A stretch of DNA of 42,216 nucleotides from a virus: IMG/VR virus record IMGVR_UViG_3300027858_000002. One strand, 5' to 3'. The position numbers were made by a program, and so were the translations under genes. The notes beneath the pieces are model-generated. The model did no database searches. It was given only the letters and a program-made list of their open reading frames with translations, and had not been told where the DNA came from. This document shows positions 1 to 42,216 of the stretch, piece after piece; positions within the stretch are counted from its first letter, which is position 1, and the number at the start of each line of letters is the position of its first letter.

Positions 1-99
1 TTCGATTAAAATGTTTTTAGCATGTGCAAGTACGAAACTCGAGCCACCTGTATACGCTGGGAAGTTTGCGTCCCACACGCCACTTTTTATAGTTATATT
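1..99. repeat. Terminal direct repeat, copy 1 (identical to 42118..42216). Overlap left by closing a circular or circularly permuted genome.
   Basis: Bases 1-99 match 42118-42216 letter for letter. A minus-strand ORF stays in frame across the join. Confidence 0.95.
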
Positions 100-688: not shown

Positions 689-1516
689 TTATCCATACCA
701 TTTATCTCTAAAATCGAACGCTAGTTTCATATCTAATCCTGTGCCACCCACTGTTACAGTGTTATCACCTTCTACAAGGTTCATAGTGAGCCAAGAACCT
801 CCGATGCTATTCAAACCATTTACACCGTTTTTTATAGCTACATATTCATCTAATTCAATTAGCCATGCGGTATTCGAGAATGTACCGAGTGTCATCGTTT
901 TTCCGTTAAATTTAATGGTGACATTAGTACCACTACCAGTTATGTGGAGGATAGGCTTCAAATTATTTCCGATGACTTCAACATTCATTGTTCCTGCTGA
1001 CGTAAATGTTTTAGGAACATTCCCCCCAGTACTTTCCCAGGTATAATCCGATGCCCAAGTAACTGTTTTACTGTTCCAGTTAACATTCTCGTTTTTAGCC
1101 ACAGAGAGTGCAAAACCTTCATAACATATCAACGGAAGAGTAAACTTTCCTTCTCTTGCCATTATTCGTTCAATTGGTACATTCCCGGTAACTCGAACGT
1201 TGTAATATTTATCAGGCTCGTACCCAAATTTCAGTTTAAATGTCCGAGGTTTACCGTTTCCATCAAGCAACATGTCTTTCGCTTTGCGTACCATGCGTTG
1301 CAAGTCGTATGGATTACTCGTTTTAATATACAAAGGAATGTTAAACGGAATTGGATCTAAATCCGCGCCAAAATCTAACGCTCCGTTTCTTCCTGCTATC
1401 GTCGTATCACGATCACGAGTACCTGACAATAAAGGGTTAGAGTGACCAGGAGTAAAGAGAAATCCGAGTGTGCGAACGTCTACATCATCGAAAAATACTG
1501 TGTATTCGTTTTGCAT
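689..1516 (-). CDS. Distal tail protein (Dit, siphovirus tail component)
   Basis: 275-aa ORF directly after the tape measure gene, with a TAATG stop/start overlap. The N-terminal pattern (TVFFDDVDVRTLGF...IAGRNGALDFG...FGYEPDKYY) is typical of Sipho_tail-type Dit proteins. Confidence 0.88.
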   Translation of the reverse strand: MQNEYTVFFDDVDVRTLGFLFTPGHSNPLLSGTRDRDTTIAGRNGALDFGADLDPIPFNIPLYIKTSNPYDLQRMVRKAKDMLLDGNGKPRTFKLKFGYEPDKYYNVRVTGNVPIERIMAREGKFTLPLICYEGFALSVAKNENVNWNSKTVTWASDYTWESTGGNVPKTFTSAGTMNVEVIGNNLKPILHITGSGTNVTIKFNGKTMTLGTFSNTAWLIELDEYVAIKNGVNGLNSIGGSWLTMNLVEGDNTVTVGGTGLDMKLAFDFRDKWYG

Positions 1517-3360
1517 TATGCGAACTCTCCTCTCTCTGCTTGTTGCGTAAGTTTGTATAACTCTCTGGCAATCTTTTTAATGTCGGCTTCTTCACGAACA
1601 ATCATATTAGCAACATTAATATCAAACTTACTGCCACTATTTTGAGCATCCATTGTGTCAGAAATCTTTTGTCCGATCATTCCAAGTACAGAACTATTCA
1701 GAGGTAACGCAGCTTCGGGACCAGCTTCACCAAAACCTTGTAAACCCATTGGTGTATTGAATACAGTAGGCTTTGTGAATAGTGCGCCTTTCGCGTTCCA
1801 ATTGATTCCGATAGATGGCATATTCCCAATCCAGTCAAGAGGATTCTTAGACCAGTTTTTTAAGCTGAAGCTAGGAACTTTGATTTTCGGTAAATTTAAC
1901 TTCATTCCACTGAAGAATCCTTTGATTTTATCTACAGCTGCTTTCACTTTGTCTTTAGCTGCATTAATCGGATTCATTATTGCGTTCTTCACTTCATTAA
2001 ATTTCGTTCTAGCTGATGTCACTAGTTCAGCGAATTTACTCACAGCACTCGATTTTAATTCGTTAAATTTGCTAACGGTTCTCGCTACCAATTCCACAAC
2101 TTTTTGAATGACTATATTTTTTATGGTATTAAATACAACAGAAAGGAACGAACCTAACTCTTTTGCTTTGGCAACAATCGTGTCCCAATTCTTCCACAGC
2201 AATACTCCTATTGCTATAAGTGCGCCAATAGCTAGTGCCACAAGGAATATTGGTGACGTTACAAATGCTAGTACCACGCCAAACGCTGTTGTAACTGCTG
2301 TCATAGCTGTGGTCATGGCGATATATATTGGACCTGTTCCCATAGCGAACAATAAAGCCGCATTATATAAAGCAACCGCGCCTGTTATCGCATAGAATGC
2401 TGTAACTCCGCCTGTAAGTCCTAGAATTAATGGTGACCACTTATTAAGAAAGTCCTCAACAGACTGTGCGCCTGACTTTACTTTGTCATCTATTGAAGCA
2501 ATACCATCAATAATTGGTTGTGGATCAAATTCAGCAACCTTCGTAGCTAAATCACCTAGCATTTTCACCGCTGGTTCGAGTACTGGCTCGCCAAATTTCG
2601 CTTTCACATCTTCCCAGGCTTGTTTTAAGTTTCCTAGTTGGTTTGTGTACGAATTAGACTCCCTAGAAGCTTGTCCCGTAGCTCCTGCTGATTTTTGCAT
2701 AGCTTCGGCATATTCAAGACGAGCCACTTGTTTTCCAGCTTCATCTAACTTTTTCCAATCCAAATCAAGTTCTTTGGCAGCATAGGCAGCTAATTGTGTT
2801 TCATTAGCAAATAATCCTATTGATTCACCACCCTCGTAGTTACCTTTAATAAATGAATTCAAAGCCGCGTTAGCATCTTCGAACGATTTATCATAAAATG
2901 CAGCTGCATCGGCGGTTAATGTCACTGCTCGTTCAGCTGTTTCCATCGCTTCAGTCGTGTCCATACCCAAACCTTTGAACATACTTGTCATCATCGACAT
3001 AGCAGGCTTAATTCGGTTAGGTAACATGCCGAAGTTTTTACCCATTTCTTCAATGGTTTTTTGTGCGTCCTTCTGCATATCTCCGAATACTTGTTCAAAT
3101 TGTGCTTTCATGGCCTGAGCGTTCGCTGCTGCTTCAACTAATGGGACTGCCATAGCTGCAATTGCGCCACCTGCAATAACTGCACCGCCTACAATAGCAG
3201 CACCCCAACCAGCCGCGACTTTTACTCCATTACTGAATTTCTTACCTATTCCATCAGCGTTTTTCCCTGTTTTTGCTATTGACCTGTTCGCTTCGTCTGA
3301 ATCAACCATTATGGATCCAAACAGTTTAAATATTTCCAATTTCGCTTTCACCTCCGACAC
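1516..3360 (-). CDS. Tail tape measure protein
   Basis: 614-aa ORF following the chaperone pair. It has Ala/Gly-rich hydrophobic blocks and long helical regions. The start is uncertain: GTG 3360, or in-frame TTG 3339 lying 9 nt after GGAGGTG. Confidence 0.92.
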   Translation of the reverse strand: MSEVKAKLEIFKLFGSIMVDSDEANRSIAKTGKNADGIGKKFSNGVKVAAGWGAAIVGGAVIAGGAIAAMAVPLVEAAANAQAMKAQFEQVFGDMQKDAQKTIEEMGKNFGMLPNRIKPAMSMMTSMFKGLGMDTTEAMETAERAVTLTADAAAFYDKSFEDANAALNSFIKGNYEGGESIGLFANETQLAAYAAKELDLDWKKLDEAGKQVARLEYAEAMQKSAGATGQASRESNSYTNQLGNLKQAWEDVKAKFGEPVLEPAVKMLGDLATKVAEFDPQPIIDGIASIDDKVKSGAQSVEDFLNKWSPLILGLTGGVTAFYAITGAVALYNAALLFAMGTGPIYIAMTTAMTAVTTAFGVVLAFVTSPIFLVALAIGALIAIGVLLWKNWDTIVAKAKELGSFLSVVFNTIKNIVIQKVVELVARTVSKFNELKSSAVSKFAELVTSARTKFNEVKNAIMNPINAAKDKVKAAVDKIKGFFSGMKLNLPKIKVPSFSLKNWSKNPLDWIGNMPSIGINWNAKGALFTKPTVFNTPMGLQGFGEAGPEAALPLNSSVLGMIGQKISDTMDAQNSGSKFDINVANMIVREEADIKKIARELYKLTQQAERGEFA

Positions 3361-3664
3361 TGTGGGAGTTCATCATTGCTCTTACATCTGCAAGTATTTG
3401 TTCGGATGTCTTTTCTTCCACAACCCCTTGTTTCTTCTGCGGAGTATAGAATTTATCGAACGGCATAAACGTTTCTTTTGTATAATTCGGATAGACAGCG
3501 ACGTATAACTGATACGCTTTTTCTTCATTACTCTTTTTGTTTGCTTCAGCGAGTAACCGCCCTATCTGTCTAATTTTCGTCTTCATGATGAAATCCAATG
3601 AGTAATGTTTGTGAAACAACATCAAGGATTCCTCATAACCCACTAGACAGACTGATTGAAAAAA
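3326..3664 (-). CDS. Tail assembly chaperone, -1 frameshift extension (T part of a G/GT pair)
   Basis: The -1 frame is open from the slippery heptamer at 3658-3664 to TAA at 3326. There is no SD of its own, and it overlaps the tape measure start as in other siphoviruses. Confidence 0.75.
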   Translation of the reverse strand, partial: FFQSVCLVGYEESLMLFHKHYSLDFIMKTKIRQIGRLLAEANKKSNEEKAYQLYVAVYPNYTKETFMPFDKFYTPQKKQGVVEEKTSEQILADVRAMMNSHSVGGESEIGNI

Positions 3665-3987
3665 TCCATTAATTCTTTATTTTTTATAATCGCTTTAACG
3701 GATGCCATCGTTTTAACTAAAGACTGAGACTTTACTTCTTCCACACTCTTACTCTCGAATATGGAAACAACCTCAAAAAATGCATCTTTAGCCTTTGGAG
3801 AGTTCTTCAAGATGTAAGCAATTAGGTTAGCACCAGCGACTTTCTTCGCCACCTCTGAATCTTCGCCTTCTTCAGCTTTAAAAACGTTGTTTGCTAGGTA
3901 TTCTTTGATATTTAAGTTGGTGTATATATCAGCAGCGTGTGGCAGCATATCAAATGCTTGTTCTGTAGAGAAAGTTGGTGTTGTCAT
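3643..3987 (-). CDS. Tail assembly chaperone (G-like)
   Basis: ATG at 3987 lies 6 nt after GGAGG and gives MTTPTFSTEQ.... The longer listed ORF (to 4029) has no SD. It sits between the major tail and tape measure genes. Confidence 0.85.
   Translation of the reverse strand: MTTPTFSTEQAFDMLPHAADIYTNLNIKEYLANNVFKAEEGEDSEVAKKVAGANLIAYILKNSPKAKDAFFEVVSIFESKSVEEVKSQSLVKTMASVKAIIKNKELMDFFNQSV
3658..3664 (-). promoter_or_regulatory. Programmed -1 ribosomal frameshift slippery heptamer T_TTT_TTC
   Basis: The minus strand reads GAT TTT TTC AAT in the chaperone frame. After a -1 slip the frame reads FFQSVCLVGYEES... with no stop. Confidence 0.7.
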
Positions 3988-5035: not shown

Positions 5036-5484
5036 TCTTCACCCTTCGGACTTTCATATTCAGATTCACTCGTTCCACCAAGAGAAGGTTTTTCATTTGA
5101 AATCCCACTCAAATATTGTGATTGAATTTTTATGATCTCATCAATGTTATTGAAAACTATTTTCCTTAGTAGCCCACGAGCAGGAGAACCATGTGTTCCT
5201 AATTCGCTTCTAGCACCATACCAGGAATCATGCTTGAATCCGATTTGCAAATCAGCATCACGTCTGCGAACCCAATACTGTGTGGAAGTGAAAATACGTT
5301 TAGAACGTTTCATACCAGGTAACTTTTTCAACTCAATGATCATTTTCTTGCGAATCAACTTGGCCACATCTCTCAACGCGGCACGAGTCAATTCTTGAAT
5401 TGTATAATTAACCGCATCCACATTAGATGTGAAGGTGACTCCACCTTTTCTATCAATCTTTGTGACGCTTCTAGGTAGTGGCAA
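5032..5484 (-). CDS. HK97 gp10-like head-tail joining protein
   Basis: 150-aa ORF with a TTG start 6 nt after AGAGGTGA. Assignment rests on size and position. Confidence 0.8.
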   Translation of the reverse strand: MPLPRSVTKIDRKGGVTFTSNVDAVNYTIQELTRAALRDVAKLIRKKMIIELKKLPGMKRSKRIFTSTQYWVRRRDADLQIGFKHDSWYGARSELGTHGSPARGLLRKIVFNNIDEIIKIQSQYLSGISNEKPSLGGTSESEYESPKGEE

Positions 5485-26196: not shown

Positions 26197-26415
26197 TCAA
26201 TTTTTAATAGACTCTTCAGCGAAAAAAATATAATCCAGTGGCTTGTCAAAATGTTTCTGAATAATAATTACTTCTTTAAGATTGAATTTTGTTTTACCCA
26301 ATTCCTTATTACCATAAGTTTGATACTCTTTCACGCCTATTAATTGAGCCATATCCAATTGTGTCATGTTGTTTTCTTTCCTTAGTTTGATTAAGTTCCA
26401 ATACATATTTTTCAA
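26197..26415 (-). CDS. Cro-like XRE-family HTH regulator, first gene of the early lytic operon
   Basis: 72 aa with LRKENNMTQLDMAQLIGV. It is divergent from the CI-like gene. AAAGGAG SD. Confidence 0.88.
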   Translation of the reverse strand: MKNMYWNLIKLRKENNMTQLDMAQLIGVKEYQTYGNKELGKTKFNLKEVIIIQKHFDKPLDYIFFAEESIKN

Positions 26416-26543: not shown

Positions 26544-26948
26544 ATGAGACTAATGACAATCACCAACAAGAACGAATTTATAGGGAATAAAATTAAGGAA
26601 TATCGGAATAAGAAGAAGTGGGTTCAACAAGACTTGGCTGATCGTGTAGGTATGAAGAAGGCTGCAATATCAACATATGAAAAGGGAAGAGTGGAAGCGC
26701 CGATTTCCAAGCTTCAAGCCATCGCAGATGTGTTAGAAGTAAAATTGATCGACCTACTCCCACCGCATGAGTCAGTCGACCAAGATTCTATTGATGAACA
26801 TATTCGTGAAGCTAAAGCAAAATTGAGCAGTTCTGAATTAGCTTTCTTGGAGTTACTGATAGCCGAAACGACTTCACTCGATATTGAAAAAAGGGAAGTT
26901 TTCTTGAAAAATTTGAGGTTCGCTCTTGAATTTACTAATAAGGAGTAG
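26544..26948 (+). CDS. CI-like XRE-family repressor. This is the only convincing plus-strand gene.
   Basis: 134 aa with N-terminal HTH KKKWVQQDLADRVGMKKAAISTYEKG and a C-terminal helical domain. ATG 26553 (10 nt after GGGGAGG) may be the true start. Confidence 0.9.
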   Translation: MRLMTITNKNEFIGNKIKEYRNKKKWVQQDLADRVGMKKAAISTYEKGRVEAPISKLQAIADVLEVKLIDLLPPHESVDQDSIDEHIREAKAKLSSSELAFLELLIAETTSLDIEKREVFLKNLRFALEFTNKE

Positions 26949-26991: not shown

Positions 26992-27284
26992 GCAGTCACA
27001 AAGGATAAAAGTAAGTCAAATGTTTCTAATTCGTTCACGTGGTTATCCTCCTTGTATTCTGATTTGTTTCTAATCACAATATTACATGAGAACATATGTT
27101 TTTAAATATAGTCCATATTCCCTTATCGTGCGATAAGATTCGACAGTATATGACATAGGGTTCAGTGTATATGTACTATCAAGTTACTTTAGTATTATTT
27201 TTCTTGGTAATTGTTGACAATGGTTTATCAATTATCTTGTATTCATGCTAACTTTGCATATGTCTTTACATGTCAACTATACCC

Positions 27285-27494
27285 TCATAAATCCTTCTTA
27301 TTATAAGTTATCACTGGTGAAGCTTTACCGTCCGATTCCCTCCAACCTCTCCAGGTGCGTTCCACGTTTCTTTTCTTCGCTTTATTCTTCAAACTGTTAT
27401 GACTACCCTTTTTCCCCTTCTTACTATCTATGATCTTCGCGTCATATTGTTTTAATCTTTTTTCTAATGCGTTATCCCTCTTCTTTTTAGTCAC
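27285..27494 (-). CDS. Very basic small protein (69 aa, 23 K/R)
   Basis: GTG start 7 nt after AGGAGG. Sequence starts MTKKKRDNALEKRLKQYDAK.... No recognisable family. Confidence 0.6.
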   Translation of the reverse strand: MTKKKRDNALEKRLKQYDAKIIDSKKGKKGSHNSLKNKAKKRNVERTWRGWRESDGKASPVITYNKKDL

Positions 27495-28050
27495 CCTAAA
27501 TCCTCCTATATACCCATTATTTAATGTTTGCTTTTTATGTTTTACGCTCTCATACTAGCAGATTGGAAGCGAGTTGGACGGCTTGGCGAACAGACTTATC
27601 CCTGTGAAATTATGAGATTAAGCCTGTCCACAATAACTAGCGTCATGTCGCTGAGCGTTACGTATTGTTTGAACGTTGCATAAGACTGTTAGAATTAACT
27701 CCTAACCTATAACTTATAGACGTGATCGTCTTACGGTGCGCGTCCATGCCCAACACCGTTCCTTTTCAGGTAATTCGTTATATAATCCTTTACCCTCGTA
27801 AAAAGAGTAACCATGATTGACTAGCTATGAAAATACTAGTCTGACCCCCCGTACGCTCTTTGCCGTCGATGTCTTGGTTATCATCATCAATAGGGTAATA
27901 CCCGTTAGGCTTTCTTTATGCAAGGCTTGCGTCCTTTACCTCGCTTACGTCAGACGATTGTTTGCAACAGCAACCGTTATCCGAATGTATTTTTTGCATT
28001 GGCTACACCACACCTTATTTTTTATAGTGGTTAGCTCCCACTTTTGAACG
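27495..28050. ncRNA. ORF-free, GC-enriched island: candidate large structured RNA or long leader. Strand unresolved.
   Basis: Stops occur about every 35 codons or fewer in the three minus-strand frames; the plus strand was only scanned for ATG-initiated ORFs, none with an SD. Two hand-counted 60-nt blocks are 50% GC in an AT-rich genome. Many local helices are present, for example GGACGGCTT/AAGCCTGTCC and GACTAG-N11-CTAGTC. A possible minus promoter TTCAAA-16-TATAAA lies at 28020-28047. Confidence 0.3.
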
Positions 28051-28053
28051 CAA

Positions 28054-28106
28054 AAAAGGCATTATTCCCATAGACCCACAGTTGCTAGGTTAGGAAATAA
28101 CGCCTT
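28054..28106 (-). terminator. Candidate intrinsic terminator (long imperfect stem) for the 28295..28759 transcript
   Basis: Minus RNA AAAGGCGUUAUUUCC, 24-nt loop, GGAAUAAUGCCUUU, then UUUGCG. The loop is large, so this call is uncertain. Confidence 0.4.
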
Positions 28107-28118
28107 TAAAAATTACCA

Positions 28119-28147
28119 GTTGAAATGTTTAAAACAACAGTATATAA
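28119..28147 (+). promoter_or_regulatory. Near-consensus sigmaA promoter TTGAAA-17-TATAAT on the plus strand
   Basis: -35 at 28119-28124 and -10 at 28142-28147, with an exact 17-nt spacer. Confidence 0.5.
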
Positions 28148-28152
28148 TTAGG

Positions 28153-28227
28153 GTTATCAATTAACCAGTGTTCGTCGCACTGTTAATCACGGGTCATTCA
28201 GTTGGTAGCTGAATGGCTCTTTTATTT
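28153..28227 (+). ncRNA. Candidate small RNA of about 75 nt, convergent and antisense to the 3' UTR of 28295..28759
   Basis: Bounded by the promoter above and a plus-strand-specific terminator: GUCAUUCAG-UUGGUAG-CUGAAUGGC plus UCUUUUAUUUU (28192-28227). It has an internal hairpin CAGTG-N7-CACTG and no ORF. Confidence 0.45.
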
Positions 28228-28294
28228 TGTCCGAGTTATTGAATTACTCTTATTCTATCTATTAATCTATAAAATGACAACATAAATCGACAAA

Positions 28295-28759
28295 CTACTC
28301 ATACTTCTTAATTATATCCTCAATAGCCAACTCCAGCACATTCGATTTTTGAACCCTTTTAACCCTGCAAAACTCATCAAGCTTATCGCCCGCACTTTGT
28401 GAAATGACAATTGTTTTTCTTACCTTATCATGTTTTGGTAAATCTTTAATTCTGTTTAATAAATCAACCTCTGCTGGATCACTCTTATGTATCAATGCTT
28501 TAATTGCTACAACTTCTTCCAATGTGAACTCGTATGAACTTGATTCGCTTTTTTGTGTGAAGTCATGTGAATTCGCATCATGAGAAGTTGTGTGAATTTC
28601 TTTGTTCCATGTTCTATCCACTGAGTTATATTTATAACCATTACCCTTCATTAGATTAGTCATTGTTGTACTGCTCATATTAGAATCAAAGTGTTTTAAA
28701 CCCCTTGCAACGCTGTATTTCTCTTTGTTTAAATGTTGTACGAATAAATCTACATCCAT
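28295..28759 (-). CDS. Protein with a C-terminal ribbon-helix-helix-like DNA-binding tail
   Basis: 154 aa with an AGGAGGG SD. The C-terminus KVRKTIVISQSAGDKLDEFCRVKRVQKSNVLELAIEDIIKKY looks RHH-like. The central Ser/His/Asp-rich segment is encoded by the iterons. Confidence 0.8.
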   Translation of the reverse strand: MDVDLFVQHLNKEKYSVARGLKHFDSNMSSTTMTNLMKGNGYKYNSVDRTWNKEIHTTSHDANSHDFTQKSESSSYEFTLEEVVAIKALIHKSDPAEVDLLNRIKDLPKHDKVRKTIVISQSAGDKLDEFCRVKRVQKSNVLELAIEDIIKKYE

Positions 28760-30228: not shown

Positions 30229-30831
30229 TTATTTAATGTCGTTAATCGTATAAACCTTCGCGCCATGTAATGACTTACACGCATCTTGTAACTGCTTACG
30301 TCTTAATTCGGTTGTAGTGAGCCATATGACAGAAGGGAAATGCCCTAAAGATTCAGCAATTGCCCCGTTATTGTATAACTCTATATACTTAGCAATTTTA
30401 ACCTTGTTTTCTCTCATGGGTTGTATGTTATCGACTTCTAAAAAATGCTGCTGATTATTCTTTTTATACATTGCATCCACAATTATCACAGTCTTACCAT
30501 CGCTTACTTTCACTTCGTTCTTCCATTCAAACGGAAAGCCATTATATATCCAAAAATCATTTCTCATGATTGTGTGGGCGACATGACCACCTTTTTTTCG
30601 TATCTTGTCACATTCCACATAAGCTTTACCTTCACGACTTAGATAGTAAATTGTTTGATGACCTTCTCTTATGCTTTGTAGGTAATCAGATAAGCCCAAG
30701 AGTACACGATTTGTGTTTCTAACTGCACCTAGTCGGCAATATTGACTGATTTGATCGCGTGTCATAAAGTCAAACTTCTTCAAAGCTAACAATATCATTT
30801 CGTCTCGTGGAGTTAATGATTTCTTTTTCAA
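30229..30831 (-). CDS. Replication-relaxation (Replic_Relax)-like winged-helix protein
   Basis: 200 aa with a TTG start 9 nt after AAGGAGG. The N-terminal LTPRDEMILLALKKFDFMTRDQISQY pattern matches the family as recalled. It overlaps the FtsK-like gene by 62 nt. Confidence 0.8.
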   Translation of the reverse strand: MKKKSLTPRDEMILLALKKFDFMTRDQISQYCRLGAVRNTNRVLLGLSDYLQSIREGHQTIYYLSREGKAYVECDKIRKKGGHVAHTIMRNDFWIYNGFPFEWKNEVKVSDGKTVIIVDAMYKKNNQQHFLEVDNIQPMRENKVKIAKYIELYNNGAIAESLGHFPSVIWLTTTELRRKQLQDACKSLHGAKVYTINDIK

Positions 30832-32071
30832 TCGATTTTACCTCCTTCTTCACAATGTGTGGAAGAATAGCCTTATCAATATCGTCAGATGTAATTAAAG
30901 GAGTTTGTAACGTTCTCCGTCCGTAGCCTGTTTGATAAATGGCTCTACCTACAATATCAGGAAGCTTTTCAGCACCGCCATCATCAAGAGCAACCCGTGA
31001 AGCAACCTCTGATTGAACACGGAATGAAAGCTTTCCGTCAGCGTTCGCTTTACATTGTCTTGGAATGGTATCGCCCACAGGGTACTGAGTAGCTAAGATT
31101 AAACGAAAACCCAATCCAGCACCAAGCCTTGAAATTTGGCTCATATATATCTGACATTGAAGTTTTATTTCTTTATCTTCTTTCCCTACACCTTCTTTTG
31201 GATTCAATTCCCCAACTTCATCCACAATCACAAAGTGACGCGTTTTGATACCTGCATCTTGAACCTTTTTCTTACCCATGCGTTTTAAGGTTATTTGCAT
31301 CTCCCTCATAGCATCACAAGCATTTTTTAACGTTTCTAGTGCTTGCTCAGGTTCGTAGGCAATAGAGGCTGTCTGTTTAAGGTTCTCATAGTCACCTAGC
31401 TCGATACCGCCTTTTAAATCGACCAGGTGAAATTTTACATCATTGGGTTTTTGCGATAGTAAACTAGTAATAATTGAGTTAATTAAATTACTCTTGCCGT
31501 ACCTCGATGTGCCACCGATAACTAAATGCGGTATTTTCTCAAAATCATGTGTAACGATCTCATTGTTTTCGCGTACTTGGCCGACGTGAAATTTCCAACC
31601 TTCAGATACTTTAAAATCAACTTGCTTGGGGAGTGGCTCATTGTAAACTCGCAAAATTAACAGACCATCGAATGACATTTCTAACTCTTTGCTTTCTGTC
31701 AATTTATTGTTCCACATGCTTTTTACGTTATCGATTATGTTTTCATCGAGCTGCAGACTTTTTAAATCATCTATGGTTATTTTCTTTCTTCTGTTGTTCA
31801 ATCCATCTTCGAGGGTTTCTTGTTTATTAAGGTAATCTTTGAAACTTCGACCTAAAGGGATACGATATTTATATTCCCATCCCCAGGAGTATTCTTTTTT
31901 CTTAATCAATTGAGTGGTGAGTGTGTCCTTTCCATCTTTCACATTTAATCCACTTAATGAAAATATCCGTTGAATCTTGCCCGAATCATTGTTAGATAAT
32001 CCATTCTTTTTTACGAACGCTTTGAAAGCAATTCCTCCCATAATTCCAGTGGTGAAGATTTCAAAAATCAT
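30770..32071 (-). CDS. FtsK/SpoIIIE-family DNA translocase-like ATPase with an N-terminal membrane anchor
   Basis: 433 aa with Walker A GGTSRYGKS, Walker B HFVIVDE, and RLGAGLGFRLILATQYP. The N-terminal segment MIFEIFTTGIMGGIAFKAFV is hydrophobic. Confidence 0.93.
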   Translation of the reverse strand: MIFEIFTTGIMGGIAFKAFVKKNGLSNNDSGKIQRIFSLSGLNVKDGKDTLTTQLIKKKEYSWGWEYKYRIPLGRSFKDYLNKQETLEDGLNNRRKKITIDDLKSLQLDENIIDNVKSMWNNKLTESKELEMSFDGLLILRVYNEPLPKQVDFKVSEGWKFHVGQVRENNEIVTHDFEKIPHLVIGGTSRYGKSNLINSIITSLLSQKPNDVKFHLVDLKGGIELGDYENLKQTASIAYEPEQALETLKNACDAMREMQITLKRMGKKKVQDAGIKTRHFVIVDEVGELNPKEGVGKEDKEIKLQCQIYMSQISRLGAGLGFRLILATQYPVGDTIPRQCKANADGKLSFRVQSEVASRVALDDGGAEKLPDIVGRAIYQTGYGRRTLQTPLITSDDIDKAILPHIVKKEVKSIEKEIINSTRRNDIVSFEEV

Positions 32072-40956: not shown

Positions 40957-42216
40957 TCACGTCATGTTCCCATTTGAATCCACAGTTCCATTGACAGCAG
41001 CGTTGTAAATCGTCATACCTATGGCCATGTTGTCACCTGCGCCTACATTCGTACATCCATTAGTGACATAAATTGCGTGTGTTGTTGTATAACCAGGTGC
41101 ATTTGTAAATACGTTACCGAGCACCATTGCACGATCAACGCCGCCAGTTAAACGAATATGGTTAGCATCTGTTCCAGCAAGAACTAATCCGTTAACTCCA
41201 ACAATGTTGTTATTTGCAATAGAAATATTTCTAGTTGATGCTTCAGATGCATATATCCCACTTTTGCCAACTCGATTAATGTTATTTCCGTTTACGTTCA
41301 TGTTAGATGAACCACCGACAATCTGTATTCCGTAACCTTCCACACTGGCGATGATATTACCGATGACCGTAATGTAATTTGAAATTGACTTGATTAAGAT
41401 CCCGTCAGAATTTACACCGTTTACATAGTTCCCGATAAGACTTATGCTGTCAGAATACGTGATGTTAATTCCGTCAAAAGTAGTATCAGGTGCAATAATC
41501 GTGTTGCCAATTACCGCAATCCCTTTATTTTTCCCGGTTGTTCCTTCTTCACCATAAATCTCAATACCACGACCACTAGTAAGACCACCTTCAATCGTGT
41601 TATTCGAGATAATGCCGCCTTCGCAAATTTCTGATTCAGAAGCAACACCACTAGAGTTTTGTGTATCTACCCCTGTAATTGCAGTGCGTACATTGATTCC
41701 TCTACCACAATTAAAAATCTTGTTATTAGTAATCGAATACTGTTGCCAGTTATAAGCACGAAACGCCCATTCTAATGTTCCTTCAACAACATTATTATCG
41801 ATGGTAATATTTTTATGTTGTTTACCGATTGTCGCACTATGTGAACCGACTGCACGACCCCAAGAACCTAGAGTTTCCGAAGCACCGAAACGACAATTTG
41901 TCACCCAAATGTCTTTACAAGGAGTATGATCGAATACTGAACCACCCCAAGGAAACGCGCTTGCATCTTTAGCAAGGTCAATTTGTACAGCTTCGGAATA
42001 ACTTCTTGCGCCGCCTTCATCGTCAAAACCAAGGAATCCACATTTGTTTACAATAGCATTTTGAATAGCGTTTAATTCAATCGCGTGACCACCCGAAATG
42101 TTATGGAATTCCGTCTCTTCGATTAAAATGTTTTTAGCATGTGCAAGTACGAAACTCGAGCCACCTGTATACGCTGGGAAGTTTGCGTCCCACACGCCAC
42201 TTTTTATAGTTATATT
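40957..42216 (-). CDS. Tail spike / receptor-binding protein with a pectate-lyase-like beta-helix, C-terminal part of the junction-spanning ORF (see 1..666)
   Basis: The reading frame is open to the window end. Repeated beta-helix rungs are visible: ISNNTIEGG, VIGNTIIAPD, LIGNYVNGVNSDG, VIGNIIASVEGYG, VNGNNINRVG, IANNNIVGVNG. Confidence 0.92.
   Translation of the reverse strand, partial: NITIKSGVWDANFPAYTGGSSFVLAHAKNILIEETEFHNISGGHAIELNAIQNAIVNKCGFLGFDDEGGARSYSEAVQIDLAKDASAFPWGGSVFDHTPCKDIWVTNCRFGASETLGSWGRAVGSHSATIGKQHKNITIDNNVVEGTLEWAFRAYNWQQYSITNNKIFNCGRGINVRTAITGVDTQNSSGVASESEICEGGIISNNTIEGGLTSGRGIEIYGEEGTTGKNKGIAVIGNTIIAPDTTFDGINITYSDSISLIGNYVNGVNSDGILIKSISNYITVIGNIIASVEGYGIQIVGGSSNMNVNGNNINRVGKSGIYASEASTRNISIANNNIVGVNGLVLAGTDANHIRLTGGVDRAMVLGNVFTNAPGYTTTHAIYVTNGCTNVGAGDNMAIGMTIYNAAVNGTVDSNGNMT
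42118..42216. repeat. Terminal direct repeat, copy 2 (identical to 1..99)
   Basis: Direct comparison of both window ends. Confidence 0.95.

What the first reader, a model, noticed from the sequence alone, without database searches (positions are those of the whole stretch)
27495..28050. About 0.55 kb of GC-enriched, ORF-free sequence in a gene-dense phage: candidate large structured RNA
Between the basic 69-aa gene and the antisense-RNA locus no frame stays open beyond ~40 codons, apart from one implausible plus-strand ORF with no SD. Two hand-counted 60-nt blocks (27541-27600 and 27721-27780) are each 50% GC, visibly above the AT-rich flanks. GC enrichment without coding capacity is characteristic of structured RNAs in AT-rich genomes. 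Many helices can be drawn. GGACGGCTT (27575) pairs with AAGCCTGTCC (27620). GACTAG-N11-CTAGTC lies at 27818-27840. GTTAG-N9-CTAAC, GACG-N4-CGTC and GCAAG-G-CTTGC are also present, and AAGCGAG (27566) can pair long-range with CTCGCTT (27940). A possible minus-strand promoter (TTCAAA-16-TATAAA, 28020-28047) would make this a ~520-nt leader of the very basic 69-aa protein, a possible RNA-binding partner. A plus-strand role cannot be excluded. Large ornate RNAs of unknown function are known to reside in Firmicute prophages. I could not match this one to any class by eye.
Basis: partly seen in the sequence, partly recalled or inferred. Interest (0 to 1): 0.7.

Follow-up and report, generated by a model that had tools for sequence, protein, structure and literature searches.

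The report
Phage copy of ori1030 replicon RNA
The gene-free, GC-richer 0.55 kb is a real, conserved, about 460-nt folded RNA element: the phage's copy of the noncoding core of the Bacillus plasmid pHT1030 replicon ('ori1030' of common cloning vectors), which suggests that this integrase-less phage persists as a plasmid and that the replicon works through a large structured RNA.

Summary
Window 27495-28050 has no credible ORF and is GC-richer (41.5%) than its flanks (33%). It is not a pseudogene. It is conserved in a syntenic phage-like contig at 91.5%, more than the adjacent 69-aa gene (81.8%). It is homologous to a noncoding block of about 1 kb in 16 small Bacillus cereus-group plasmids, three IMG/VR phage contigs and one Bacillus scaffold. 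That block is the only sequence four natural plasmids share. It lies in the only Bacillus-derived fragment of a pHT304-type shuttle vector, i.e. ori1030 of pHT1030. Comparative analysis supports an extensive secondary structure on the window's minus strand: 110 pairs, 37 with compensatory changes against 15.6±2.7 in shuffles, 170 G·U cells against 6 A·C, and 90-93% of pairs kept in four held-out sequences. Upstream lies a conserved promoter / antisense-RNA / terminator cassette. The phage genome is complete and circular, has a CI/Cro switch, and no integrase was found. Best reading: an antisense-controlled, structured replicon RNA that maintains the prophage as a plasmid. The RNA structure and the homology are shown. 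The replication role in the phage and the ColE1-like priming mechanism are inferred. No Rfam family matches.

The parts
28252..28280 (-). Promoter P_L (TTGTCA-17-TAGAAT), directly after the stop of the 154-aa gene. It is the likely start of the long minus-strand transcript that runs through the antisense target.
   Evidence: Promoter scan, 10 of 12 matches. The -10 GATAGAATAA / GGTAAAATTA is conserved in phage and plasmid homologs while the spacer varies (A1, A3).
28120..28148 (+). Promoter of the countertranscript (TTGAAA-17-TATAAT).
   Evidence: Best promoter match in the region, 11 of 12. The -35 (TTTCAACT on the other strand) is invariant in all 9 phage and plasmid sequences of A3.
28154..28228 (+). 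Antisense RNA (ctRNA) of about 75 nt with two hairpins. The second hairpin is an intrinsic terminator with apical loop UUGGUAG.
   Evidence: Terminator scan, 28191-28219. Fold -25.1 kcal/mol, z = -5.8. Homologs in L002, L008 and BTB_15p fold alike, z = -4.7 to -6.2.
28052..28104 (-). Terminator/attenuator hairpin plus U run on the minus strand, between the antisense target and the structured core.
   Evidence: The sequence shows it directly. It is only 58% identical in L002, yet the hairpin and T run are kept. A hairpin plus T run lies at this position in every family member examined (A3, A4).
28026..28042 (-). Small hairpin AGUGG-GAGCUAA-CCACU just 5' of the core.
   Evidence: Conserved in WIN, L002 and the BTB_15p, NJ-W and p30090_4 groups (A2). 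An equivalent GUGG...CCAC hairpin is present in L019, L022, L025 and L026 (A4).
27557..28014 (-). Structured RNA core of 458 nt, closed by helix 28012-28014 / 27557-27559. It holds the conserved hairpins, including the GNRA hairpin 27761-27770 and the invariant hairpin 27733-27759.
   Evidence: RNAalifold: 110 pairs, 37 compensatory. Controls. Strand test. Held-out sequences. Mapping to window coordinates, 78 pairs carried over.
27536..27556 (-). Conserved 3' tail (GCUAGUAUGAGAGCGUAAAAC). Conservation drops after it.
   Evidence: A2 columns 644-668. WIN/L002 identity falls to 76% in 27510-27539.
27285..27494 (-). 69-aa basic ORF downstream. It is a neighbour, not a constant partner of the element.
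   Evidence: Only four homologs among 5.8 billion proteins. Only L002 has the element next to the homolog.

Best explanation
Window 27536-28280 is a phage-borne copy of the pHT1030 (ori1030)-type plasmid replication module.

Layout on the minus strand: a promoter (28280-28252) starts a transcript that crosses the target of a convergent antisense RNA of about 75 nt (28154-28228, plus strand). The transcript then meets a terminator/attenuator (28104-28052). If it reads through, it continues into a 458-nt, highly structured RNA (28014-27557).

In the plasmid relatives this ORF-free block is the only shared sequence. It also lies in the only Bacillus-derived fragment of a pHT304-type shuttle vector, so it is the replicon itself.

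I infer three things. The structured RNA is the positive replication effector, most simply a pre-primer or origin-activating transcript, as RNA II is in ColE1. The antisense RNA sets copy number by attenuation. This complete, circular, CI/Cro-carrying genome, in which no integrase was found, uses the module to persist as a plasmid prophage.

Shown: non-coding status, conservation, covarying structure on the minus strand, homology to the ori1030 fragment, and the conserved cassette. Inferred: transcription, a replication function in the phage, priming, and attenuation.
For: Not a gene:
- No Pfam signal in six frames.
- No conserved ORF, no 3-periodicity, and indel lengths not biased to multiples of three across 15 homologs.
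- Three insertions of 1, 5 and 1 nt in L002.

Selection: between WIN and L002 the core is 91.5% identical, against 81.8% for the 69-aa ORF and 58-77% for the flanks.

Homology:
- 16 Bacillus plasmids.
- L025, L026 and L027, L032.
- nhmmer finds full-length single copies.

Structure:
- 97.9% of cells paired. 37 pairs with double changes against 15.6±2.7 in shuffles (0 of 500 reach it) and 2-7 in slid controls.
- 170 G·U cells against 6 A·C cells. RNAalifold energy -96.6 on this strand against -59.6 on the other.
- Held-out sequences keep 90-93% of pairs with 11-18 double changes each.
- The 15-sequence alignment gives 100 pairs, 40 of them compensatory.

Replicon:
- The vector record CP041081.1 carries bla, ErmB, lacZ pieces, M13 sites and ColE1 RNA I/II. 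Its only Bacillus part is BTB_15p 1273-3914 at 99.6% identity. That part includes the element and excludes the RepA_N-like gene.
- pHT304-18Z is described as such a shuttle vector (PMC9430311).
- ori1030 is named as the Bacillus origin of vectors (PMC5678133, PMC10101014).
- A 'spbB protein' is annotated next to the element.
- Four natural plasmids share only this block.
- No Pfam Rep family in the proteins tested from the 7.7- and 8.0-kb plasmids (every annotated hypothetical protein of the 7.7-kb one; three of the four in the 8.0-kb one).
- ParA or TubZ partition genes lie next to the element in L026, L025 and L019.
- No iterons and no DnaA boxes.

Cassette:
- It is homologous in phages and plasmids.
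- In L011 and in Peribacillus p16118 the same cassette ends in a terminator directly before the RBS and ATG of a plasmid-borne 266-aa protein.

Phage:
- 99-nt terminal overlap, so the genome is circular and complete.
- CI/Cro present.
- No integrase among the 30 largest ORFs.
Against: - There are no expression data, so the transcript ends are unknown.
- The promoter next to the core is weak and the terminator upstream is strong. How much RNA reaches the core is therefore unclear.
- No convincing antiterminator was found. The only hint is a single-sequence fold.
- That the 1-kb minimal replicon of pHT1030 lacks an ORF is my recollection of Lereclus & Arantes 1992 (PMID 1738313). The paper was not held.
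- The 2.64-kb vector fragment also carries a 58-aa ORF and a 134-aa PBECR2-fold gene.
- BTB_15p and PSCG11 have RepA-like genes close by, so in some plasmids the block could be an accessory.
- The window copy lacks one hairpin domain of the plasmid versions and is only 58-63% identical to them overall. It could be a non-replicating remnant kept for another role.
- The phage also has Replic_Relax and FtsK-like genes and its own polymerase and primase. These could serve maintenance instead.
- Small ORFs were not all screened for recombinases.
Confidence: 0.65

Rival explanations
1. The element is a conserved accessory RNA of these plasmids and phages, for example a copy-number, incompatibility, stability or anti-defence RNA acting in trans. 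It is not the origin or primer itself. Replication depends on other determinants: RepA-like or Replic_Relax proteins, or a short origin elsewhere in the 1-kb block.
For: RepA_N-like or RepA genes lie 0.5-0.8 kb upstream in BTB_15p and PSCG11. Replic_Relax genes are near the element in the window, L019, L022 and L025. Related phages keep the cassette without the element.
Against: The vector fragment lacks the RepA-like gene yet is the only Bacillus-derived DNA in a plasmid assembled from a Bacillus strain. Four plasmids share nothing else. No Rep family was found in the proteins tested from the two smallest plasmids.
Confidence: 0.17
2. The structure forms in single-stranded DNA rather than RNA. 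It would be a strand-specific origin-type signal, such as a single-strand origin or an origin of transfer, used during rolling-circle replication or transfer by the neighbouring Replic_Relax/FtsK-like proteins.
For: The hairpin pair at 27729-27774 gives a local match to GEBRO, a motif found between the single- and double-strand origins of a rolling-circle plasmid, for which an ssDNA role has been suggested. Strand specificity would also fit ssDNA.
Against: Many invariant G·U pairs (170 cells) are better tolerated in RNA. The size (about 460-560 nt) and the multi-helix architecture exceed typical single-strand origins or transfer origins. No rolling-circle Rep is present in the vector fragment. 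A conserved promoter / antisense RNA / terminator cassette implies transcription.
Confidence: 0.08
3. One reading: a leader of about 520 nt, or an RNA partner, of the very basic 69-aa protein, regulating or binding it.
For: Same strand, no terminator between the core and the ORF, and a good RBS. A different small basic ORF also follows the element in L026.
Against: The protein's homologs occur without the element, and the element occurs without the protein. In the plasmids the downstream genes are unrelated.
Confidence: 0.07
4. A decayed protein-coding gene, for example a remnant of the integrase that usually sits between the lysis and CI genes.
For: Its position matches the classical int/attP slot. 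Relatives carry a 266-aa gene there.
Against: No Pfam hit in six frames. The 266-aa gene is not similar to the element. The element is more conserved than the neighbouring genes, shows covarying helices, has no codon periodicity, and carries frame-breaking indels.
Confidence: 0.01

Closest known systems
pHT1030 replicon (ori1030) of Bacillus thuringiensis, the replicon of the pHT304/315/370 vectors and of pBS0E-type vectors
   Same: DNA homology over the whole core. The same upstream promoter / antisense RNA / terminator cassette. The same ORF-free organisation. The plasmid block lies inside the 2.64-kb fragment carried by a pHT304-type vector.
   Different: The window copy sits in a 42-kb phage genome. 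It is only about 58-63% identical overall (77-85% in the conserved segments). It lacks one hairpin domain (A2 columns 280-328) and has a diverged 3' domain. To my knowledge a covariation-supported RNA structure for ori1030 has not been described. That rests on memory and on the absence of an Rfam family, not on a full literature check.
ColE1-type replicons (RNA II pre-primer, RNA I antisense)
   Same: What it works like: no plasmid Rep protein required (inferred), a long structured RNA of about 500 nt in the origin region, and a small antisense RNA made from a convergent promoter near its 5' part.
   Different: No sequence or Rfam similarity. The host is Gram-positive. The antisense target is separated from the structured core by an intrinsic terminator, so control looks like attenuation rather than interference with RNA II folding. 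Dependence on RNase H and Pol I is untested.
Countertranscript-driven attenuation of rep genes (pT181, pIP501/pAMβ1 family)
   Same: A convergent small RNA opposite the leader and a terminator just upstream of the controlled unit. In the relatives L011 and Peribacillus p16118 the terminator directly precedes the RBS and ATG of a protein gene.
   Different: In the window and in pHT1030-type plasmids the controlled unit is a non-coding RNA, not a rep ORF. No alternative antiterminator pairing has been demonstrated.
GEBRO RNA motif (Rfam RF02988; plasmid pUA140, between the single- and double-strand origins)
   Same: A GC-enriched non-coding element in a plasmid replication region. Local similarity of a GNRA hairpin plus a large-loop hairpin (model positions 265-310), found in four family members.
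   Different: Scores are 17-25 bits against a gathering score of 284.7. Only about 40 of 350 model positions match. This is not a member.
ARRPOF motif (region required for replication of a Fusobacterium plasmid without its rep gene)
   Same: A structured non-coding motif inside an ORF-free region that suffices for plasmid replication (PMC5737381).
   Different: A different phylum. No Rfam match here.
ROOL and GOLLD large ornate RNAs of prophages
   Same: Large size, a multi-helix architecture, and presence in Firmicute phage genomes.
   Different: No Rfam match at either the gathering or the E-value threshold. The context is a replication/partition region, not tRNA clusters.

Membership tests
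pHT1030/ori1030 replicon family | Sequence homology to the ori1030 fragment carried by pHT304-type vectors | tested here: met
   blastn gives 77-85% identity over window 28063-27842 and 27788-27732. The whole core aligns. The vector fragment equals BTB_15p 1273-3914 and contains the homolog at 1687-2327.
pHT1030/ori1030 replicon family | ORF-free core without a conserved reading frame | tested here: met
pHT1030/ori1030 replicon family | Upstream cassette: leader promoter, convergent antisense RNA, terminator hairpin with T run | tested here: met
   A3 alignment with an invariant antisense -35. Folds. Scans.
pHT1030/ori1030 replicon family | Complete set of consensus helices | tested here: inconclusive
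   78 of 110 consensus pairs carry over to the window. Helices at A2 columns 280-328 are replaced by a shorter hairpin. The 3' domain is diverged and partly misaligned.
pHT1030/ori1030 replicon family | Supports autonomous replication in Bacillus without a plasmid Rep protein | not testable with these tools
   For the plasmid version this is inferred from the vector record and from shared-sequence analysis. For the phage copy it is untested.
GEBRO (RF02988) | Score at or above the Rfam gathering threshold over the 350-position model | tested here: not met
   16.9 bits in the window and 22-25.5 bits in homologs, against 284.7. Only model positions 265-310 match.
ROOL, GOLLD, group I/II introns, riboswitches, ribozymes, other Rfam 15 families | Any covariance-model match | tested here: not met
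   No gathering-level hit in the whole window. Nothing relevant at E ≤ 10 in 27000-28400.
ColE1-type RNA II/RNA I replicon | Antisense RNA complementary to the 5' part of the long RNA | tested here: inconclusive
   True only if the long RNA starts at P_L (28280-28252) and reads through the terminator. The transcript ends are unknown.
ColE1-type RNA II/RNA I replicon | RNase H-processed primer, Pol I dependence, no Rep protein | not testable with these tools
Rep independence is inferred only.
Countertranscript attenuation systems (pT181/pIP501 type) | Terminator directly upstream of the controlled unit, plus mutually exclusive antiterminator pairing that the antisense RNA sequesters | tested here: inconclusive
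   The terminator is present and conserved. A possible antiterminator, pairing the 5' arm of the terminator with 28172-28150, appears only in a single-sequence fold.
Protein-coding gene or pseudogene | Similarity to proteins, codon periodicity, frame-preserving indels | tested here: not met
Dedicated leader or partner of the 69-aa protein | Co-occurrence of the element and the protein gene across relatives | tested here: not met
   They co-occur only in the window and L002. They are separate in all other loci.

The most novel reading that the evidence does not exclude
The covarying RNA of about 460-560 nt is itself the initiator of a protein-independent replicon in Bacilli. That would make it a new class of large structured RNA that primes or licenses DNA replication (a Gram-positive counterpart of ColE1 RNA II, unrelated to it), is gated by antisense-RNA attenuation, and has been captured by temperate phages as their plasmid-prophage replicon.
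Probability: 0.4. Interest if true: 0.85.

Novelty: new variant of a known kind. Interest (0 to 1): 0.72.

Why it matters
ori1030 has been used in Bacillus vectors for more than 30 years, yet how it replicates is, to my knowledge, unexplained. This finding gives a concrete and testable hypothesis: a large RNA with 37-40 covarying base pairs, an antisense RNA and an attenuator. Bacterial structured RNAs longer than 400 nt are rare, and this one matches no Rfam family. Its presence in complete phage genomes that have no detectable integrase but have repressor switches, next to ParA or TubZ genes in related elements, links it to the phage-plasmid lifestyle. It also shows a replicon module moving between small plasmids and phages.

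Tried and rejected
- DNA searches of the region and of 22 kb of the window against the phage collection found nothing. The BTB_15p element against the same collection also found nothing.
- tblastn of the 154-aa and 69-aa proteins against phages found nothing.
- Exact-pattern scans with 21-31-nt stretches of the window found nothing in viral, metagenome or genome collections. Only patterns built from family-invariant columns worked.
- I searched a six-frame pseudo-protein of the region against 5.8 billion proteins. It gave no hit, but it also failed to recover the spurious 67-aa ORF called in L002, so this negative carries little weight.
- Pseudogene or integrase remnant: rejected.
- ROOL, GOLLD, intron or riboswitch: rejected.
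- Protein-dependent origin with iterons or DnaA boxes: none found.
- I tried to obtain the primary pHT1030 literature (PMID 1738313, PMC93776, PMC179355, PMC98934) and ori1030 primer sequences. The papers were not held and the sequences were not found. Statements about the 1-kb ORF-less minimal replicon therefore rest on memory.
- I built no covariance model. nhmmer and RNAalifold were sufficient.

Full report
**1. The observation**

Window 27495-28050 has no plausible ORF. The longest are a 76-aa and a 51-aa TTG-started plus-strand ORF. GC is 41.5%, against about 33% on both flanks and 37.6% for the window.

Folding the single sequence gives only marginal support: z = -1.9 on the minus strand and -0.8 on the plus strand. 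Rfam 15 gives no gathering-level match anywhere in the window. In E-value mode the only relevant match is a 46-nt local hit to GEBRO at 27729-27774, minus strand, 16.9 bits against a gathering score of 284.7. There are no tRNAs.

**2. Not a gene**

Six-frame translations have no Pfam match. Across 15 homologs the longest ORFs differ in strand, frame and position. Variable columns show no 3-periodicity (0.61, 0.54, 0.60). Indel lengths are not biased to multiples of three.

**3. Genomic setting**

The window's first 99 nt equal its last 99 nt, so it is a complete circular or terminally redundant genome of about 42.1 kb. It encodes:
- terminase, portal, protease, capsid, tape measure, Dit and tail proteins;
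- an endolysin;
- its own DNA polymerase and primase;
- a CI-like repressor (26544-26948, +) and a Cro-like protein (26197-26415, -).

Upstream of the finding, on the minus strand, lie an FtsK/SpoIIIE-like protein, a Replic_Relax protein, YopX and a 154-aa protein of phrog_2727. No integrase or recombinase was found among the 30 largest ORFs. The finding occupies the slot where int/attP usually sits. Small ORFs were not all screened.

**4. Homologs**

The 69-aa protein has only four homologs among 5.8 billion proteins. One of them, on the Logan contig L002, is syntenic: L002 1147-2829 matches window 28835-27106 at 81%. In the pairwise alignment, identity by segment is as follows.

| Segment | WIN/L002 identity |
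|---|---|
| Non-coding core | 91.5% |
| 69-aa ORF | 81.8% |
| Upstream cassette | 77% |
| Terminator hairpin (hairpin and T run kept) | 58% |
| Downstream of the ORF | 64% |

L002 has insertions of 1, 5 and 1 nt inside the core.

The other homologs of the 69-aa protein (L001, L003-L005) have no such element. Related phage contigs found through the 154-aa protein (L008-L014) share the 200 nt just 3' of that gene, window 28300-28087, at about 80%. They do not share the long element. L011 and L012 carry a 266-aa gene in its place.

A sensitive blastn search against plasmids found 16 small Bacillus cereus-group plasmids of 7.6-30 kb, plus one of 128 kb, with 77-85% identity. Almost all of these matches lie in unannotated DNA. 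Patterns built from invariant columns then recovered further copies:
- a Bacillus sp. BP-3 scaffold (L025);
- three IMG/VR viral contigs of 52-54 kb (L026, L027, L032).

An nhmmer profile finds one full-length copy in each of these, and one in the window at 28062-27504.

**5. What the plasmid block is**

*The shuttle vector.* Record CP041081.1 is a 9.9-kb 'plasmid p8' of a Paris Bacillus strain. It carries TEM bla, ErmB, lacZ fragments, M13 primer sites and the ColE1 RNA I/II region, so it is a pUC-based shuttle vector of the pHT304-18Z type. The literature describes pHT304-18Z as an AmpR/EryR lacZ-fusion shuttle vector (PMC9430311). Its only Bacillus-derived DNA is BTB_15p 1273-3914 at 99.6% identity. 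That fragment contains the homolog of the finding (BTB_15p 1687-2327) and excludes the nearby RepA_N-like gene.

*Identity with pHT1030.* BTB_15p is 15.2 kb and carries Tn4430 tnpI. A relative has a gene annotated 'spbB protein' next to the element. spbA is the stability locus named in the title of the pHT1030 replicon paper (reference seen). ori1030 is the Bacillus origin of widely used vectors (PMC5678133; PMC10101014).

*Shared sequence.* Four natural plasmids of 7.7, 8.0, 10.8 and 15.2 kb share, in all pairwise comparisons, only the non-coding block of about 1 kb. None of the proteins tested from the two smallest plasmids (all seven hypothetical proteins of the 7.7-kb plasmid, three of the four in the 8.0-kb one) has a Pfam Rep domain.

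*Neighbours.* In other members the element lies next to divergent partition genes: ParA in L026, and TubZ in L025 and pH308197_29. There are no iterons and no DnaA boxes in window 27450-28300.

From memory, Lereclus & Arantes (1992) reported a 1-kb minimal replicon without an ORF. I could not read the paper. The only ORF-free stretch of about 1 kb in the vector fragment is the one that holds the element.

**6. Structure**

*Main alignment.* A 12-sequence alignment (A2) spans six lineages at about 58-85% pairwise identity. RNAalifold predicts 110 pairs in 21 helices on it, and 37 of those pairs show compensatory double changes. On that structure:
- 97.9% of cells form standard pairs;
- the 37 double-changed pairs compare with 15.6 ± 2.7 in column shuffles (0 of 500 reach the observed value) and with 2-7 when partners are slid by 1-3 columns;
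- the covariation score is 0.266, against 0.145 in shuffles.

*Strand.* There are 170 G·U cells against 6 A·C cells. The consensus energy is -96.6 kcal/mol on this strand and -59.6 on the complement. The fold therefore belongs to the window's minus strand.

*Held-out sequences.* Four sequences found afterwards keep 90-93% of the predicted pairs and contribute 11-18 double changes each. A 15-sequence alignment gives 100 pairs, 40 of them compensatory.

*Clear examples of covariation:*
- the GNRA hairpin CCU-GAAA-AGG, which appears as CCC/GGG, GCU/AGC and CUC/GAG in other lineages (window 27761-27770);
- helix 27728-27731 / 27718-27721;
- helix 27971-27976 / 27955-27960;
- hairpin tips that accept insertions of 15-40 nt in some plasmids.

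*The window copy.* Its core runs from 28014 to 27557 and 78 consensus pairs carry over. It lacks one hairpin domain of the plasmid versions. Its 3' domain is diverged.

*GEBRO.* The GEBRO-like local match recurs at the same hairpin pair in three other members at 22-25.5 bits. That suggests a shared small module, not membership.

**7. The upstream cassette**

On the minus strand the order is as follows.
- A promoter at 28280-28252, TTGTCA-17-TAGAAT, with a conserved -10.
- The complement of a plus-strand small RNA. Its promoter is at 28120-28148 (TTGAAA-17-TATAAT) and its terminator at 28191-28219. The RNA is about 75 nt, with z = -5.8.
- A long hairpin with a U run at 28104-28052.
- A small hairpin at 28042-28026.
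- The core.

The cassette aligns between the phage relatives and the plasmids. The antisense -35 is invariant in all nine sequences. Every member examined has a hairpin plus T run just 5' of the core.

In L011, and in a 16-kb Peribacillus plasmid, the same layout ends directly at the RBS and ATG of a 266-aa protein. That protein has homologs on small plasmids of several Bacillaceae. The cassette therefore looks like a replication-control unit of the countertranscript/attenuator type, placed in front of interchangeable effectors. In the window and in pHT1030-type plasmids the effector is the structured RNA.

An antiterminator pairing is suggested only by a single-sequence fold.

**8. Interpretation**

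Shown:
- a non-coding element under purifying selection;
- a large covarying secondary structure on the minus strand;
- homology to the core of the ori1030 fragment;
- a conserved antisense/terminator cassette;
- a complete phage genome with no integrase detected.

Inferred:
- the RNA is transcribed and is the positive effector of a Rep-protein-independent replicon, ColE1-like in logic;
- the antisense RNA controls it by attenuation;
- the phage uses it to persist as a plasmid.

Rivals are an accessory RNA that is not the origin, an ssDNA signal, and the leader of the 69-aa gene. All three are weaker for the reasons given in their entries. A pseudogene is excluded.

**9. Novelty**

The replicon is known and widely used. 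The window's element is a divergent, phage-borne variant of it. The covariation-supported RNA of about 460-560 nt matches no Rfam 15 family, and to my knowledge it has not been described. I could not check the primary literature on pHT1030, so that part of the claim is provisional.

Noticed in passing
L006 (BTB_15p) 2882-2993, minus strand: A skipping-rope RNA (RF02924) scores 65.7 bits against a gathering score of 36.7. It lies inside the ori1030 vector fragment, just 3' of a PBECR2-nuclease-fold gene, so common pHT vectors carry this motif.
   Followed up: no
L025 (Bacillus sp. BP-3 scaffold31) 5117-5183, minus strand: A Bacillus-plasmid RNA (RF01691) scores 40.6 bits against a gathering score of 31. 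It lies near Replic_Relax and FtsK-like genes, on the same scaffold as a copy of the element and a TubZ-like gene.
   Followed up: no
window 1-99 and 42118-42216: The first 99 nt are identical to the last 99 nt, so the window is a complete circular or terminally redundant genome of about 42.1 kb. No integrase was found among the 30 largest ORFs.
   Followed up: partly
window 28202-28209 (+) and 28026-28042 (-): The apical loop of the antisense RNA (UUGGUAG) is complementary to its own antisense leader. It is also nearly complementary to the loop of the small hairpin that precedes the structured core. In BTB_15p this second match is exact for 7 nt (UGGUAGC / GCUACCA). It could be a second target site.
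   Followed up: no
L011/L012 4214-5014; L033 (Peribacillus p16118) 1501-2316: In related phages the slot after the antisense cassette holds a 266-aa phrog_1835 'HTH DNA binding' protein. Its homologs (50-67% identity) sit on small Peribacillus and Heyndrickxia plasmids behind the same cassette. It is a candidate replication initiator under attenuation control.
   Followed up: partly
L008 4176-4713: Another relative has about 540 nt of unannotated DNA in the same slot, unrelated to the element. Only a 55-nt stretch matches two small plasmids of other Bacillales. It may be a further non-coding replicon variant.
   Followed up: partly
window 27285-27494 (-); L001 1750-2013: The 69-aa basic protein shares a WRGWRESDG motif with a handful of homologs. 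In L001 the homolog follows a tyrosine recombinase and a 580-nt gap that does not match the element.
   Followed up: partly
window 30229-32071 (-); L019 4401-5138; L022 3036-3763; L025 5812-7651: Replic_Relax genes, paired with an FtsK/SpoIIIE-like or coupling-protein-like ATPase gene in the window, L022 and L025, recur within a few kb of the element in phage and plasmid contexts (the gene after Replic_Relax in L019 was not tested). They are also present in relatives that lack the element. Their relation to it is unclear.
   Followed up: no
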